Positions 6,470 through 64,000 are shown, counted from the whole stretch's first letter. The stretch is DNA of 64,000 nt, filler included, from Bonamia ostreae (GCA_040357525.1; 23 parts of 23 records of this genome joined end to end with filler, not necessarily neighbours in it); one strand, 5' to 3'. Numbers and translations are program-made. The notes: generated by a model not told the origin, from the sequence alone.

Positions 6470-8300
6470 TCAAATGCCCATTTTCTCGTAAAGAGAATCC
6501 AATATCTTTTTGTATCGTTTGCTTAAAAAAGTTCGACGCAATTTGAACGATGGCGTCAACAAGCCATTTTCCGGCGAGAACCCGTTAAATTGGTTATCGA
6601 TTTTGTATTCCAAATGCACTTTTCTGATCTTTTCAAAGCCACTCAAATTTTCTTCGAAATTTGTTAATGTTTTTTGCATTTCTGAGTTTAGTTTTAAATC
6701 ATTTTCGCTGCAAAGTTTTTCAAATGTTTCCACAAATTCTGTGATTGAGTTTGAGCTTAATTGCGATTTTGCTGTTTTTGTTTCTACAAAGATGCCCATT
6801 TTTAATAATTTTAATTAATATAACATAATTGTCGACCGTTTGGCAATTGTGAAAACATTAAAACCGAACATTTAAGAATATTTAGCGGTAAATGAAAATA
6901 GTTTGTACGAAAAGAATTATAAAAATTGACTTAATCGAACAAGTCTTTAAAAATGTGAAGATTAACAGTTTTAGAAAAAGTAGTTTAAAAAGACATGAAT
7001 TCAAGTCTGCTCAATCGATTGCTAAAAAGTTGTTCATTACGAAAATAAACGATTGTAATTACGAAAACAAAAATACACAATTATTTGGGTTACCCAAAAA
7101 CAATGATGCCATTAAGTACAAAATTTTAGAAAACAATAGCACCAACCCATATAATTACAAAATCTTATATAATATAATTACAAAACCTTGAATATCCGAC
7201 AAAAGCTCTAATGCCCAATTTACATCAGGAACGATGACAGCAACCAGAAACGGTTTGGTGCTGTCGCCGTAGATGTAAATCTGGTTCACCGCGCCCGACC
7301 GCCCGTACGCGATCTCAACGACCTCGGGCGAAACATATTCGCCTTGGGATAGCTTGAAAATCGCCTTTATCCGGTCGATCACGGAAATAGTGTTGTTTGG
7401 GTTCAGCCGGCAAACGTCGCCGGTGTAGAACCAACCGTCGCGCACAGCTTCCCTTGTGCGCGCCTCGTCCCGGAAGTAGCCCTTAAACAGGCATTCGCCG
7501 CGCAAGGTGAGTTCCCCGCGAGCCTCGGCGCCGTTAGGGTCGTAATCGGTGTCCGCGACGGACTCCAACTTGATCTCGCAGTTCAACGGAAGGCCCATCT
7601 GGCCCAAGTTGGGGTCGTCCCCGTTCGTCAAAGACACCACTGCGAACGTCTCCGTCAAGCCATATCCCTGCAAAACTTCCCCCGCCGTCATCACCCGTAG
7701 AAACTCGATCAGATGTGTGGGACAGGGCGCTCCCCCCGTCACCAGATGCTTCACCCGGTCGAACCCCAACTTCTGCCGCAGCTTCGACCACACCAGCGCG
7801 TCCAAGGACTTCGGCCGCGTCAGACTCGCCGCGCAGTGCGTCTGGTCGATCCCGCGCTTCAAGGCGAAGTGGAACAGCCAACGCTTCACGAACGACGCGT
7901 CCGCGACGCTTGCCATCACGCGCGAGTACATTTTGTCGAACACTCTCGGGACGCCCACGAAGTAGTGCGGGCGGAGCTCGACCAAGTCGCTCGCGATCAG
8001 CTTGATGTCGCCGCTGAAATAGCCAACGTGCCCTCCCGTGAGGATGCAAAGAAACTCGATCATTGTCTCGAAGATGTGCGCCAAGGGGAGATAGGACAAG
8101 AGAGCGCAGTTTTCCGTCGATTGGAACTAAGCGTGAATTTGAAAACGGAGCCGATGCAGTTCCGCAGAGTCGAGACCGCGTTTTGGTTGGTCAACATTAC
8201 GCCTTTCGGGCGGCCGGAAGTTCCTGACGTGTACATAATGTAAGCCAGACTGTCTTCGGTCGGGCGTTCCGGGTCGAAGGAGTGCGAATTTTCTTCGCCC
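6470..8300 (-). CDS. Long-chain acyl-CoA synthetase (ACSL family), 5'-truncated
   Basis: '[16 protein letters not shown]', '[10 protein letters not shown]', 'QGYGLTE', 'GWFYTGD', '[12 protein letters not shown]', '[12 protein letters not shown]'; a 20-nt intron at 8127-8146 restores the frame. Confidence 0.95.
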
Positions 8301-8466
8301 TATGATAATTTGTTGAAAATATAATTAAATAATAAAAGATTTAAAAACAGAAAATAATTANNNNNNNNNNNNNNNNNNNNNNNNNNNNNNNNNNNNNNNN
8401 NNNNTTAATTAATTAANNNNNNNNNNNNNNNNNNNNNNNNNNNNNNNNNNNNNNNNNNNNAAAATG

Positions 8467-9518
8467 TTAAAGCTTTTTGAAAACATCTAAATTCAGACCA
8501 TCAAAATTTGCTTTTCGACCAACAGTAATCAAAGCTTTATCAAAATCCATTTCTTCGACTTTCTTAGTTTTGTTATCGCTGACTTTCAATCTCACGCCGT
8601 TCTTGCCATTGGACATCGCCGACAAAACCGACTTTCCGAACAAAAATTTCATTTTCTGACCTTTCAGAATTTTTGTAAAGCTCTGAGCTATTTCGCTGTC
8701 TAACGACGGGATTATCCTGTCAAAATACTCGATCACTGTCACTTTCGCACCTAATCTCCCCCAAACCGTTCCCTGTTTCACGATAAAAATTTTAAAATTT
8801 TTGTTGATTTAAAGTTTCGCTGTTGTTTAAAAGTTTCAATGTTCAAAAGACCAATTCAATACCGGTAACGCCAGCGCCAACGACGACAAACCTCTCAGGA
8901 ACGCTTTTAAGAGACAAAGCACCCGTCGAGGACAGCACATTTTTCTCGTCGATCTCGACTCCGGGAAGCGATCTAGAAGAGGATCCCGTTGCGATGATGA
9001 TGTTTGCGGCGGTGATGGTTTTTCGTTCGCCCTTTGAAGTCTGGATAGACAGCGAATTGGCGTTTTCGCCAGTGAAGCTTGCTGTTCCTTGTATCAAATC
9101 GACTTTGTTTTTTCGGAAGAGCATTTCGATTCCTTTCGCGAGCGACAAAACGCTTTGTTCTTTGTTTTTCTGCATTTCCGTGATGTCGGCTTTGCAATTT
9201 TCGACGGTTATTCCGTATTTCGAGAGCCCGTGTTTGGCTTGGTGGTACAAATGCGTTGCGTGTAGCAGAGATTTGGAAGGGATGCAGCCGACGTTCAAAC
9301 ATGTGCCGCCCAATGTTTCTCTTTTTTCGATGCAAACAGTCTTAAAATTTTGTTGATGGAACTTTGAGGCCAAGTTGACTAGCTTTGATGGCCGCGACGT
9401 AGCCGCCTGGACCGCCGCCGATCACTGCGACGTCAAAATCGGTCGCTTGGCTCAAAGTGGCAAAAGTTTGTACGGAGAATTTTCGCGACTTTTTTATTTT
9501 AGATCCAATTCGGAGCAT
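8467..9518 (-). CDS. DLD: Dihydrolipoamide dehydrogenase (E3) with N-terminal mitochondrial-type presequence, 3'-truncated
   Basis: '[50 protein letters not shown]'; 22-nt intron at 9341-9362. Confidence 0.96.
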
Positions 9519-10056
9519 TAATGATTTTAAATCTTGTGTGGTTTATAGAGCAATGGTTTAAAATGCAATTGCTAATTTCTTGTGTGGTTTATAAGATCTT
9601 CCTGATAAAAACGAAGGAATTTATTGATACAATAATCTAAAATTAGAAGGTTTTGTTTGCAACTAACAATGTCCCCCTTGATTTTTAAAGTCGACATTGC
9701 GTCGGGACGCACAAACCTTTGAATGTTGCATAAACCTTAAATTTTGGTTTGTGGGCGGTTTTCATTGCACTGCAATTTTAGTAGAAACAGTGATTGTCAA
9801 CAATATTAAAAAAAAACGTTGTCAAAGAAACAGTAATGTTGTCAAAATATAGATAAGTCAAAGAATAAATTTAATATAAAATGATGTCATCAAAATTAAT
9901 GAGAGCGGATCAAACTTCAAAAGTGACCAAAAATGAAAAAATTGTTAATTTGCTTGAAAAAGCGTTTGGATCTATCCCATCCATCCAAGTAGCTTTTTAA
10001 AGCTGCAAACAACTGGCTTTTTAACTAATTGGAATATATAAAAATAGCATTACGCA

Positions 10057-61974: not shown

Positions 61975-62587
61975 TTAATATCCTTCAGGGAAAGAAAACT
62001 CAGTCTTGCGATTTGTTAACTTCCTATACACCGCCGAAAAAACGGGCAATTTTTCTTCGACCGAATCTTTAAAACGGGCTTCGAGATGCACTCTGAAAAG
62101 TCTCGTCTGGTCCATCTTCATACAGGTCCTTCTCCCCGCTATTTGGGAAGGATAAATCAGGTCTTCGAGCATTTTGTCGTAAACGTTCGTCAGAGCTCTG
62201 TTGCGGGGTCTGTTTTGGTTGCCCTTGTAGCGTTTGTTCTAAAAGTGATCGCTTAAAAACGTTCACGGAAAGAATGCGCCTGAAAGGGAACAGGAAAACG
62301 TAGTAGCTCTCCATCTTGCGCTCGATGAGCGAAGTGAGCTTGGACTGCATTTTCCGGACTTTTGTGTTAAGCACGTAAGGGTAGAAAATGACAAGCGCTT
62401 TTTTGGGGTTGTTTTGGATATCGATCTCCCGGGTGCTGATTATCTGGAACCGGAAGAGATCGATATCTTTGTTTTCCCTTTCGATGTCGATCAGCGCCTG
62501 CGCGACAGTTTGGTCAAGCTGCGTGGGCGAGTCGATGGATTTGTATAGTTTTCCTTTTATGTGCGCTTCTAACTTTTCGTTCGCCAT
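61975..62587 (-). CDS. RPS7: 40S ribosomal protein S7 (eS7); 28-nt intron
   Basis: 'KKALVIFYP', 'RRILS|NKRYKGNQNRPRNRALTNVYDKMLEDLIYPSQIAGRR', 'VYRKLTNRKTEFSFP'. Confidence 0.95.
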
Positions 62588-62665
62588 TTACCCTAAACTG
62601 ATATACTAAATATGTTAAAAATTAGCAAATCGTCTATTACGCGAAGACATAGTAAACGTGCTTTC

Positions 62666-64000
62666 ATGCCACAGGACAGTTTGAACGTCGGAAACTTAAG
62701 TGACAAAATCGATAAACTAAGATCTGTCCAAAGCTCTTTTGTTTTCATATATTCTTAAACATCTCAAATTTAAGACCGAAGAGCTATGCAGCATCATAAT
62801 CGTCTCCGAAAGTTCCTCAGTTGACTCTTATGCGAAATCGTCCGCTGTGTTCATCTGGCTCTTCGGATTCGATATTCCCGGCAGTGTGCTGGTCTACTCG
62901 TTCGAAAACAAAATGCTGCATCTCTTCTCCGACAAATGTTTCAGATCATTATTTATTAAGACGCGAATTCCAACGTCTTTGGCGATTCTGGTGATTTGAA
63001 GACTGAAAAGATGAGCGCTTTTGAGGAGAGCGTAAAAGACGAAAAATTTGGAACCAAAAAATCGGTCCTTTTTCTGAAAAACAAATCCGGAGAATTGTTT
63101 CAAAAAGTCTTTGCTACGATAAAAAGCAACTTTCTGCTTGTTGAATGTAATAGCGCAGTTGGAAAATTGCTGTCCGTCAAAACCGGAAAGGAGCGAAACT
63201 GCGCGGAAAAAGCTGCAAATCTGTGCAGCGCCGTTTACAAATATTTTCTGGTCCCGAAAATTGAAACCGTTATTGACGAAGATATAAAAATTACTCATTC
63301 GACGCTTTCAAAGTCGACCGAGAAAATCATCAATACGCCAAATAAAGTGCAAATCAATGTTTCTAAAATTTATTTTGGCATTAAAAAATTTTGCTTTAAA
63401 ATTCATTTTTGGCAAATATGATCAAAAATCAACAAAATAAGCTTAACCCCGATTTCGTAGAAAGCTGTTATTCTCCAATAATACAAAGCGGGGGCGAATA
63501 TAATATGAAACTATCGGCGGAATCGACTTCAAACCCTCTCAAGATCACCAAAAACGCTCCGGTTTTGATATCTCTCGGTGTTCGCTACAAATCTTATTGT
63601 TGCAACATGTCGCGTAGTTTAATGTTCGATCCTTCCGAAGAACAAAAACGAGTTTACAACACGGCATTGTGTGCATTCGAAGCAGCAGTCGACGCTTTGA
63701 AGCCCGGGACAGAAGTAAAGAGAATTTGGGAGATAGTTCGAAATGTTGTGGAAGACAAATATCCCGAAAAGGTCGACAAACTGATGAAAAACTGTGGATT
63801 TGGCGTTTAAATTTTGAAATTTTAACAGATCGGAATACAGTTTAGAGAACCAGGATTTGTGATTCACAAAAGCAACGCGAATAAAATTGAAAATGGAATG
63901 ATATTCAATCTGAGCGTCGGTTTTGAGAATTTGGAGGATACAATTTCGAACACACCGTATGCTATTCAAATAGCCGATACGGTTGTCGTCGAACAAAAGG
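62666..64000 (+). CDS. SPT16: FACT complex subunit SPT16, 5' part
   Basis: 'YAKSSAVFIWLFGF', 'CYSPIIQSGGEYNMK', 'SLGVRYKSYCCNMSRS', 'KNCGFG|IGIQFRE', 'GMIFNLSVGFENL', 'IADTV'; an in-frame ATG at 62612 is an alternative start. Confidence 0.95.

What the first reader, a model, noticed from the sequence alone, without database searches (positions are those of the whole stretch)
8127..63830. Atypical splice code: GTT donors and frequent AAG acceptors
Seen: among about 45 introns called by restoring reading frames, mostly across conserved protein motifs, roughly four-fifths begin GTT (GTTTT, GTTTC, GTTCA, GTTTG) and none has GTRAG. About two-fifths end in AAG, often after an A-rich rather than pyrimidine tract (NAA10 'GAAAAAAAAG', SPT16 'TTTAAG', DLD 'TTTTAAG'). 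Known: the usual consensus is GTRAG..YAG, set by U1/U6 pairing and U2AF. Inference: the U1 5' end, the U6 ACAGA box or U2AF have co-diverged, or recognition is largely by intron length.
Basis: partly seen in the sequence, partly recalled or inferred. Interest (0 to 1): 0.72.

Follow-up and report, generated by a model that had tools for sequence, protein, structure and literature searches.

The report
Atypical GTT splice donors, tiny introns
The introns of this AT-rich microbial eukaryote really do begin GTT(T) instead of the near-universal GT-purine, many are only about 20 bases long, and the only well-described parallel is the amoeba Entamoeba, whose U1 RNA changed to match.

Summary
The window is 23 separate ~2.7 kb contigs joined by artificial linkers. 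Transcript contigs of two public runs skip 5 introns on one contig exactly; a DNA run does not. Their donors are GTT x3 and GTC x2.

I curated 52 introns:
- 34 higher-confidence: RNA, homolog scoring, exact match to a database protein, or frame-restoring tiny introns.
- 18 from a signal-free gene caller.

Counts:
- GTT: 42 of 52 (81%); 31 of 34 in the higher-confidence set.
- +4 T: 26 of 34.
- GTRAG: 0 of 52.
- AAG acceptors: 25 of 52 (48%).

+3 T lies far above background (intron T 0.37, p 7e-11). -3 A (16 of 34) does not exceed the intron A content (0.41, p 0.30). AAG therefore reflects a lost pyrimidine preference, with no polypyrimidine tract.

Lengths are bimodal: 23 of 34 are 19-40 nt.

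No genome is held and the window holds no snRNA. The closest precedent is Entamoeba GUUUGU with a co-evolved U1. I rate this a new variant of a known kind, of moderate interest.

The parts
764..795 (-). 32-nt intron, GTTCA..CAAG
   Evidence: Only GT..AG solution joining the two ORFs.
902..924 (-). 23-nt intron, GTTTC..AAAG
   Evidence: Only solution of 45 nt or less.
1046..1085 (-). Intron of 22-40 nt with an ambiguous donor; all three candidate donors are GTT; ends AAAG
8127..8146 (-). 20-nt intron in the acyl-CoA synthetase (AMP-binding) gene, GTTTT..TTAG
   Evidence: Only solution of 45 nt or less. Pfam profile positions run on across it.
8773..8851 (-). 79-nt intron in the DLD gene, GTCTT..ACAG
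   Evidence: Skipped by contigs of X3 and X8, not by DNA run X1. Top homolog score.
9341..9362 (-). 22-nt intron in the DLD gene, GTTCC..TAAG
   Evidence: 22 letters left out in the X3 contig and present in DNA run X1. Top homolog score.
10255..10322 (+). 68-nt intron in the Rab GDI gene, GTTTT..TTAG
   Evidence: X3 joint.
10378..10447 (+). 70-nt intron in the Rab GDI gene, GTTTT..ATAG
   Evidence: X3 joint, cut +1 variant.
10664..10784 (+). 121-nt intron in the Rab GDI gene, GTCTA..TTAG
   Evidence: X3 joint.
11826..11883 (-). 58-nt intron in the NAA10-like acetyltransferase gene, GTTTT..AAAAAAAAG
   Evidence: Junction keeps the spacing of the GNAT core (family spacing recalled). Pfam.
20997..21023 (-). 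27-nt intron in the adenosine kinase gene, GTTCA..ATAG
   Evidence: Homolog score 3123 against 2135 for the next candidate, 22 homologs. Only solution.
23603..23621 (-). 19-nt intron in the P-type cation ATPase gene, GTTTG..TTAG
   Evidence: Shortest solution. Junction restores a conserved ATPase motif (motif recalled).
24866..24924 (-). 59-nt intron in the P-type cation ATPase gene, GTTCA..AAAG
   Evidence: Junction lies just before the phosphorylation-site motif (motif recalled).
32947..32975 (-). 29-nt intron in the EF-Tu-type GTPase gene, GTTTG..TTAG
   Evidence: Only solution of 45 nt or less.
39948..40072 (-). 125-nt intron in the P4-ATPase gene, GTTTC..AAAG
   Evidence: Top homolog score, 2293 against 2221. 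Lies at the conserved hinge motif.
40755..40793 (-). 39-nt intron in the P4-ATPase gene, GTTTA..AAAG
   Evidence: Best GT solution. A GC-donor alternative scores 1502 against 1487.
40965..40988 (-). 24-nt intron in the P4-ATPase gene, GTTGA..TTAG
   Evidence: Top homolog score. Acceptor margin is small, 1041 against 1032.
41082..41136 (-). 55-nt intron in the P4-ATPase gene, GTTTT..ACAG
   Evidence: Homolog score 1089 against 977.
41217..41240 (-). 24-nt intron in the P4-ATPase gene, GTTTT..TTAG
   Evidence: Best GT solution. GC-donor alternatives score slightly higher, 1361 against 1334.
41524..41588 (-). 65-nt intron in the P4-ATPase gene, GTTCT..AAAG
   Evidence: Homolog score 1642 against 1457.
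41732..41752 (-). 21-nt intron in the P4-ATPase gene, GTTTT..CAAG
   Evidence: Shortest solution. Homology slightly prefers a 39-nt GTC alternative, 896 against 855.
42567..42591 (+). 25-nt intron, GTTTA..TTAG
   Evidence: Joins ORFs of 134 and 136 codons.
42724..42748 (+). 25-nt intron, GTTTT..TTAG
42947..42965 (+). 19-nt intron, GTTTC..CTAG
45914..45946 (-). 33-nt intron in the PUF-protein gene, GTACT..AAAG (the one GTA donor)
   Evidence: Only solution of 45 nt or less.
47275..47296 (-). 22-nt intron in the PUF-protein gene, GTTTC..GAAG
57589..57956 (+). 368-nt intron in the SHMT gene, GTTAA..ATAG
   Evidence: Junction falls inside a strongly conserved SHMT motif (motif recalled).
59573..59593 (-). 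21-nt intron, GTTTA..TTAG
   Evidence: A 15-nt alternative uses the same donor.
60516..60535 (-). 20-nt intron, GTTTT..AAAG
62239..62260 (-). 22-nt intron in the ribosomal protein S7e-like gene, GTTTT..TTAG
   Evidence: Shortest solution. A 28-nt GTG alternative exists.
62741..62774 (+). 34-nt intron in the SPT16 gene, GTTTT..TAAG
   Evidence: The spliced model equals database protein P0263 at 390 of 390 residues.
62938..62960 (+). 23-nt intron in the SPT16 gene, GTTTC..TAAG
   Evidence: Only solution of 45 nt or less.
63359..63441 (+). 83-nt intron in the SPT16 gene, GTTTC..TAAG
63805..63828 (+). 24-nt intron in the SPT16 gene, GTTTA..ACAG

Best explanation
These are genuine GT-AG spliceosomal introns of an AT-rich microbial eukaryote. 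Its 5' splice-site consensus has shifted from the usual GU-purine-AGU to GUUU, with no conservation beyond +4. Its 3' splice site has shrunk to 'not-G, then AG' with no polypyrimidine tract, which is why AAG is as common as TAG.

Shown:
- The introns are removed from RNA.
- The +3/+4 U preference is real.
- -3 A sits at background.
- Lengths fall into a tiny class of 19-40 nt and a longer class of 50-470 nt.

Inferred mechanism: the two U's at +3 and +4 are read by adenosines in snRNA. The most likely reader is a U1 whose 5' end changed at the two facing positions, as reported for Entamoeba. After the hand-over, the invariant U6 ACAGA box could form U:A, U.G and U:A with +2 to +4. In the tiny introns, a short A-rich CAA[AC] element and the fixed distance between the two ends supply the rest of the definition.
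For: RNA. 5 of 5 introns on the one contig that could be laid are skipped by transcript contigs (one of them in two runs) and kept in a DNA run. None has a purine at +3.

Counts. +3 T 31 of 34 and +4 T 26 of 34 against intron T 0.372. GTRAG 0 of 52.

Controls:
- At the 23 tiny loci the chosen donors are GTT in 22 of 23. Unused GT..AG alternatives at the same loci are GTT in 6 of 14 (Fisher 6e-4).
- My homolog-scoring method recovered both RNA-proven DLD introns, 2 of 2.
- Four SPT16 introns reproduce a 390-residue database protein exactly.

Pairing, mean positions paired:
- Canonical U1: 3.7 of 9.
- U1 with A at both facing positions: 5.3 of 9.
- U6 ACAGA: 3.2 of 5.

Branch element. CAA[AC] is in 14 of 23 tiny-intron interiors against 4.5 in shuffles; 0 of 500 shuffles reach it.

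Precedent. Entamoeba GUUUGU donors with a U1 reading AACAAAC (preprint 10.1101/2022.06.08.495308, passages read).
Against: No snRNA or splicing-factor gene of this organism could be looked at, so the mechanism is inference only.

Data limits:
- +5 and +6 are not conserved (G 2 of 34 at +5), so Entamoeba-style full pairing does not apply.
- RNA evidence covers one contig only, and there 2 of 5 donors are GTC. The true GTT share may be nearer 75-80% than 91%.
- 15 tiny introns rest on a 'shortest frame-restoring GT..AG' rule.
- At three P4-ATPase junctions a longer or GC-donor alternative scored equal or slightly higher by homology.
- 12 of the 56 raw calls were dropped or replaced, mostly non-GTT ones on the wrong strand.
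- One further Rab GDI intron (after 10998 or 11006) has an unresolved, possibly GTA or non-GT start.
Confidence: 0.5

Rival explanations
1. Recognition works with little or no U1. The lineage has a reduced spliceosome, and the 5' splice site is chosen directly by U6, U5 and Prp8 together with intron length. GUUU is then simply the sequence that best fits the unchanged U6 ACAGA box.
For: GUUU can pair U:A, U.G, U:A with U6 (pairing register from the preprint passage). 23 of 34 introns are 19-40 nt, which leaves little room for separate U1 and U2 complexes. [quoted passage not shown] The best named relatives of the window's P4-ATPase are from the rhizarian Reticulomyxa.
Against: Long introns of 55-368 nt carry the same GTT donors (9 of 11), and length alone cannot define those. 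Nothing shows that U1 is missing here. The rhizarian placement rests on one protein's best hits at 40-41% identity.
Confidence: 0.3
2. Artefact. The GTT and AAG frequencies merely reflect AT-rich introns and by-eye or model-driven boundary choices.
For: -3 A (47%) is indeed no higher than the intron A content of 41%. A self-trained splice-site matrix did inflate GTT to 45 of 53 and mis-called the RNA-proven GTC donor at 8851.
Against: RNA proves 5 boundaries. +3 T gives p 7e-11 against background. Unique-solution loci are GTT in 7 of 8. A caller that knew only GT and AG already gave 37 of 56. No matrix was used for the final sets.
Confidence: 0.03
3. The tiny introns are copies of one mobile 'introner' element, so the shared ends reflect common descent and not a splice code.
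For: The tiny introns share GTTT, an internal CAA[AC] and similar lengths.
Against: Their interiors are barely more alike than shuffled versions: mean best local score 8.04 against 7.55 +/- 0.28, with 12 of 200 shuffles reaching it. Long, unrelated introns have the same donor. Several sit in conserved genes at motif-interrupting positions.
Confidence: 0.03

Closest known systems
Entamoeba atypical donor GUUUGU(U) with a co-evolved U1 snRNA (Roy & Bowser, bioRxiv 10.1101/2022.06.08.495308; first report of the donor cited there as Davis et al. 2007)
   Same: U at both +3 and +4 of a GT-AG intron in an AT-rich genome. Canonical U1 pairing is lost at the same two positions.
   Different: Entamoeba: 88-90% of introns have the full GUUUGU, with U at +7; it is intron-poor and has no ~20-nt intron class (passages read). 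Here: +5 and +6 are unconserved, there are at least 52 introns in 62 kb, lengths are bimodal, and the organism has DLD and SHMT genes. Its best named P4-ATPase hits are rhizarian. Its U1 is unknown.
Ultra-short introns of myxobolid Myxozoa and Dicyema japonicum (Hadjez et al., Mol Biol Evol 2026, PMC13644364; Results read)
   Same: Median length 22-27 nt. The 3' signal is reduced to AG with no polypyrimidine tract. A few A residues upstream of the AG are proposed as the branch site.
   Different: Their 5' logo is 'GTa'; here it is GTT(T). They are animals. This window carries a Y_phosphatase2 gene and shows protist-like best hits.
Mikrocytid (Mikrocytos, Paramikrocytos) 16-17 nt introns with a reduced spliceosome (BMC Biol 2023, PMC10245619; passages read)
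   Same: Extremely short, sequence-constrained introns in an AT-rich parasite of marine invertebrates. One weak RNA holder of this window's sequence is a mollusc-associated library.
   Different: Mikrocytid introns are few (224) and of uniform length; no U1 was found. Here lengths vary from 19 to 470 nt and introns are dense. The mikrocytid consensus appears only in a figure that I could not see.
GUAUGU lineages (Saccharomycotina, Giardia, Trichomonas)
   Same: A pyrimidine at +4 that improves U6 pairing and mismatches U1.
   Different: +3 remains A in those lineages, and U1 keeps its canonical 5' end (preprint passages).

Membership tests
Major (U2-type) GT-AG spliceosomal introns | GT..AG termini and precise removal from RNA | tested here: met
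   5 of 5 joints in transcript contigs, absent from the DNA run. All 52 curated introns are GT..AG by construction.
Major (U2-type) GT-AG spliceosomal introns | Purine at +3 (GTRAGT-like donor complementary to the canonical U1) | tested here: not met
   +3 purine in 1 of 34 and 5 of 52. GTRAG in 0 of 52.
Major (U2-type) GT-AG spliceosomal introns | Polypyrimidine tract and YAG acceptor | tested here: not met
   The last 11 nt before NAG are A 0.43, T 0.35, C 0.14. -3 is A16 T15 C3 G0 of 34.
Major (U2-type) GT-AG spliceosomal introns | Branch-site element upstream of the 3' end | tested here: inconclusive
   CAA[AC] in 14 of 23 tiny introns against 4.5 expected. No lariat data.
Entamoeba-type transformed donor | U at +3 and +4 | tested here: met
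   31 of 34 and 26 of 34.
Entamoeba-type transformed donor | G at +5, U at +6 and +7 (GUUUGUU) | tested here: not met
   +5 G in 2 of 34, +6 T in 14 of 34, +7 T in 11 of 34.
Entamoeba-type transformed donor | U1 snRNA 5' end changed to complement the donor | not testable with these tools
   No genome is held. No snRNA in the window.
U12-type (minor) introns | Donor [AG]TATCCTT | tested here: not met
   None of the 34 donor pentamers is GTATC. None of the 18 others either.
Mikrocytid-type ultrashort introns | Uniform length of 16-17 nt | tested here: not met
   Lengths run from 19 to 368 nt in the higher-confidence set.
Myxozoan/dicyemid-type ultrashort introns | 5' signal reduced to GTa | tested here: not met
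   +3 A in 1 of 34.

The most novel reading that the evidence does not exclude
This would be a second, independent lineage outside Amoebozoa, probably rhizarian, in which the 5' splice-site code moved to GUUU. The move would have come either through compensatory A-A changes in the U1 5' end or through loss of U1-based recognition. Unlike Entamoeba, this organism is intron-rich and half of its introns are about 20 nt long. That could make it an intermediate stage on the road to the 16-17 nt introns and stripped spliceosomes of mikrocytid parasites.
Probability: 0.3. Interest if true: 0.7.

Novelty: new variant of a known kind. Interest (0 to 1): 0.5.

Why it matters
Position +3 of the 5' splice site is a purine in almost all eukaryotes, because it faces a conserved U1 residue.

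A second lineage with U at +3 and +4 would allow a direct test of an open question: do transformed splice signals arise by co-evolution of introns with snRNAs, or by escape from U1? Unlike Entamoeba, this lineage has dense introns, weak downstream positions and a class of ~20-nt introns.

There is also a practical side. Standard gene finders and splice-aware aligners assume GTRAG..YAG and introns of at least ~30 nt, so they will mis-annotate this genome. Even a self-trained matrix mis-placed an RNA-proven donor here.

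Tried and rejected
RNA and run data:
Only one contig could then be laid.
- Run X5 laid nothing.

Genome, snRNA and taxonomy look-ups:
- Whole-genome look-up: none is held.
- Rfam on the window at gathering score and at E<=1: 0 hits.
- Earlier-findings look-ups: nothing on this genome or pattern.
- Protein-atlas look-up of the ATPase exon for taxonomy: uninformative.
- Cluster look-up of P0263: service switched off.
- Metagenome scan for relatives of the ATPase exon: 55 loci, best 48-63% identity, no close relative in which to test conservation of the donor. 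Not analysed further.

Methods tried and dropped:
- Self-training of splice-site matrices. It raised GTT to 45 of 53 but found only 2 of the 5 RNA-proven introns and mis-called the GTC donor at 8851, so I discarded it.
- Two generic enumerations of frame-restoring GT..AG pairs. They gave 991 and 752 candidates and were too noisy.
- A control asking which of the 256 terminal dinucleotide pairs can bridge the 23 tiny loci. GT..AG bridged 23 of 23, but AT-rich pairs bridged 21-22, so it does not discriminate.

Other tests:
- Stop-codon reassignment. 26 in-frame stops have coding-like flanks (TAG 11, TAA 11, TGA 4), nearly all antisense or inside introns. There is no support for a variant code.
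- Homology could not settle the adenosine kinase junction at 20141/20129, the acceptor of the 20688 intron, or the last P4-ATPase junction.

Literature. Searches for a description of GTT donors outside Entamoeba found none in the held library. Figures and supplements of the Ascetosporea and mikrocytid papers were not seen and may bear on this.

Full report
WHAT THE WINDOW IS. The 64 kb window is not one locus. It consists of 23 contigs of 2,602-2,723 nt in falling order of length. They are joined by 100-nt linkers (44 N, a 12-letter all-frame stop string, 44 N), and there are two internal N100 gaps. No whole genome is held for the window. GC is about 0.34 overall, 0.35-0.6 in exons and 0.15-0.25 in introns.

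A Pfam scan of 150 of the 176 longest non-overlapping stop-to-stop ORFs identifies ordinary eukaryotic housekeeping genes split over several ORFs:
- acyl-CoA synthetase
- dihydrolipoamide dehydrogenase (DLD)
- Rab GDI
- a NAA10-like acetyltransferase
- an OTU protease
- adenosine kinase
- a P-type cation ATPase
- an EF-Tu-type GTPase
- a WD40 protein
- a P4-ATPase
- a PUF protein
- a Y_phosphatase2 phosphatase
- SHMT
- SPT16
- a LINE-like retroelement

DIRECT RNA TEST. One search for sequencing runs gave DNA holders (X1 holds 0.92 of the sampled words), a small transcript-like run (X3, 0.57) and an RNA-Seq run labelled mollusc metagenome (X8, 0.08).

X3's contigs cover only the exons of DLD and Rab GDI. 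They skip 9341-9362 (22 nt), 8773-8851 (79 nt, also skipped by X8), 10255-10322, 10378-10447 and 10664-10784. DNA run X1 covers all 30 bins and joins across none of them. All five stretches are GT..AG. Donors are GTTCC, GTCTT, GTTTT, GTTTT and GTCTA. Acceptors are AAG, CAG, TAG, TAG and TAG.

BUILDING AN INTRON SET WITHOUT ASSUMING THE ANSWER. A semi-Markov gene caller that knew only codon statistics, GT and AG gave 56 introns, some of them wrong-strand calls. Of these, 37 begin GTT, 10 GTC, 5 GTA and 4 GTG.

Letting the caller learn splice-site matrices raised GTT to 45 of 53. It also mis-placed the RNA-proven GTC donor at 8851 and found only 2 of the 5 proven introns. I therefore discarded that route.

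Junctions were fixed by independent evidence instead:
- Homolog scoring. Every GT..AG candidate was scored by aligning the spliced peptide to fetched homologs. This recovered both proven DLD introns, 2 of 2. It fixed three P4-ATPase introns with clear margins and three more with small margins. It also fixed one adenosine kinase intron (3123 against 2135) and the GTG donor at 20688.
- Database protein. Four SPT16 introns give a product identical at 390 of 390 residues to database protein P0263. That protein ends exactly at the contig end. It is therefore another program's model of the same contig and not transcript evidence.
- Conserved motifs. Five junctions fall inside well-known conserved motifs of P-type ATPases, SHMT, NAA10 and the P4-ATPase hinge. 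The motifs are recalled.
- Tiny loci. For 23 loci, the shortest GT..AG that restores the frame between two long ORFs was taken. At 8 of them it is the only solution of 45 nt or less.

This gives 34 higher-confidence introns, plus 18 lower-confidence ones kept.

Of the 56 raw calls, 9 were dropped:
- 4088-4103
- four calls on the + strand of contig 6, antisense to a 348-codon ORF
- 31144-31226
- 38389-38584
- 38700-38776
- 62245-62272, antisense to the S7e gene

Three more were replaced by better-supported boundaries, and 8 introns were added. The dropped calls were mostly non-GTT. That is why I also give the raw figure.

NUMBERS:
- Higher-confidence set (34). +3: T31 C2 A1 G0. +4: T26 C6 G1 A1. 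+5 onward follows the A/T background. -3: A16 T15 C3 G0.
- All 52. GTT 42 (81%), GTC 5, GTA 3, GTG 2. AAG 25 (48%), TAG 19, CAG 7, GAG 1. GTRAG 0.
The pattern also holds on the contigs to the left of them.
- Strictest subset (5 RNA-proven plus 8 unique-solution loci): GTT in 10 of 13 (p 0.018 against 0.443).

Background and controls:
- Intron interiors are A 0.413, T 0.372. T follows GT in 0.443 of all 5,516 GT dinucleotides counted on both strands of the window.
- +3 T gives p 7e-11 and +4 T gives p 4e-6.
- At the tiny loci, chosen donors are GTT in 22 of 23 and unused alternatives in 6 of 14 (Fisher 6e-4).
- -3 A is not above background (p 0.30). Only G is avoided (0 of 34, p 0.03).
- The 11 nt before NAG are A-rich (A 0.43, T 0.35), so there is no polypyrimidine tract.

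The acceptor half reduces to 'no pyrimidine preference'.

ANATOMY. Lengths are bimodal. 23 of the 34 are 19-40 nt, with 16 of those between 19 and 25 nt. The others run from 55 to 368 nt, and up to 469 nt in the lower-confidence set. GTT is dominant in both classes: 22 of 23 short and 9 of 11 long.

Tiny-intron interiors carry CAA[AC], often within a longer ACCAA-like string, in 14 of 23 cases against 4.5 in shuffles; 0 of 500 shuffles reach that count. This is a candidate branch element. Otherwise the interiors are hardly more alike than shuffles (8.04 against 7.55 +/- 0.28, with 12 of 200 shuffles reaching it). They are therefore not copies of one mobile intron. The exon side of the donor is weak: G at -1 in only 10 of 34.

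MECHANISM (INFERENCE). A canonical U1 5' end would pair with a mean of 3.7 of 9 donor positions. A U1 with A at the two positions facing +3 and +4 would pair with 5.3 of 9. The U6 ACAGA box would pair with 3.2 of 5, mainly at +2 to +4. The registers are recalled or taken from the preprint.

The only described lineage with U at both +3 and +4 is Entamoeba. There, 88-90% of introns read GUUUGU, and a relaxed Infernal search found a U1 with AACAAAC in place of the canonical sequence (preprint 10.1101/2022.06.08.495308, passages read). The same passages state that GUAUGU lineages keep a canonical U1.

My estimates are:
- U1 co-variation plus U6 fit: about 0.5.
- Recognition with little or no U1 in a reduced spliceosome: about 0.3.
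- Artefact or introner origin: about 0.03 each.

Nothing in the window allows a test. There is no snRNA and no U1-snRNP or U2AF gene.

WHAT ORGANISM. No close relative exists in the protein collections: DLD is at most 59% identical to any hit. The best named hits of the P4-ATPase exon are two Reticulomyxa (Rhizaria) proteins at 40-41% identity. The adenosine kinase hits are plants and unnamed sequences. A metagenome scan found no close relative. The presence of DLD and SHMT argues against Entamoeba itself (recalled knowledge of its metabolism).

Three points fit a rhizarian associate of marine invertebrates: the weak mollusc-library holder, the AT-richness and the fragmentation of the assembly. 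This is a lead only.

Published ascetosporean genomes are described as having 'canonical' introns, or 16-17 nt ones in mikrocytids (PMC11069148 and PMC10245619, passages read). I found no statement about GTT donors there or elsewhere. Figures and supplements were not seen.

Myxobolid myxozoans and Dicyema share the ~22-27 nt introns and the bare AG acceptor, but their donor logo is 'GTa' (PMC13644364, Results read).

VERDICT. The frequent AAG is real but is a background effect of a degenerate 3' signal. The proposed snRNA or U2AF co-divergence remains untested.

This is a new variant of a known kind: a transformed 5' splice-site consensus. It is notable because it combines Entamoeba-like +3/+4 U with high intron density and a ~20-nt intron class.

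Noticed in passing
window 1-64000; linkers at e.g. 2724-2823, 8361-8460: The window is a chain of 23 independent ~2.7 kb contigs, sorted by length and joined by N44 + 12-letter stop linker + N44. Gene neighbourhood across linkers therefore carries no meaning.
   Followed up: yes
window 10990-11010 (end of the last Rab GDI exon on contig 4): The X3 transcript contig matches the window up to 11006 and then continues with coding sequence that is not on this contig. The mRNA therefore seems to contain the in-frame TAG at 10997-10999, at the place of a conserved Tyr. The intron that follows would begin AC (11007) unless the true donor is the GTATT at 10999. Two of the three mismatches in that piece are not listed. 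DNA run X1 diverges from the window beyond about 11020. A scan for in-frame stops gave no sign of a variant genetic code.
   Followed up: partly
interiors of the 23 introns of 19-40 nt (e.g. 23603-23621, 42947-42965, 42567-42591, 20997-21023): CAA[AC], often within an ACCAA-like string, recurs 6-13 nt upstream of the 3' AG. It is found in 14 of 23 against 4.5 in shuffles. It is a candidate branch-site element.
   Followed up: partly
window 50366-53025 (+): An apparently intact LINE-like retroelement. An ORF with a CCHC zinc knuckle is followed by a 662-codon ORF with endonuclease and reverse-transcriptase domains that runs to the contig end.
   Followed up: no
window 57664-57849 and 58282-58458: AT-rich tandem repeats flank the SHMT exons; they show up as repeated peptide strings in the ORF lists. 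The SHMT exon that should follow the donor at about 58238 is not on the contig.
   Followed up: no
window 7158-8299 against its flanks; contig 22506-25207: Exon GC varies widely between genes. The acyl-CoA synthetase and P-type ATPase exons are at 0.57-0.6, while the NAA10, OTU and Rab GDI exons are at about 0.3-0.35. All sit next to introns at 0.15-0.25.
   Followed up: no
window 53126-55785 (contig 20): This contig has several ORFs of 100-140 codons but almost no coding score under the model trained on the other contigs, and no Pfam hit among the ORFs scanned. It may be repeat-derived or of a different origin.
   Followed up: no
window 62666-63999 (+): A public protein collection already holds a 390-residue model (P0263) identical to the spliced SPT16 model of this contig. 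It ends at the contig end, so an annotation of this assembly exists. Its source could not be looked up.
   Followed up: partly
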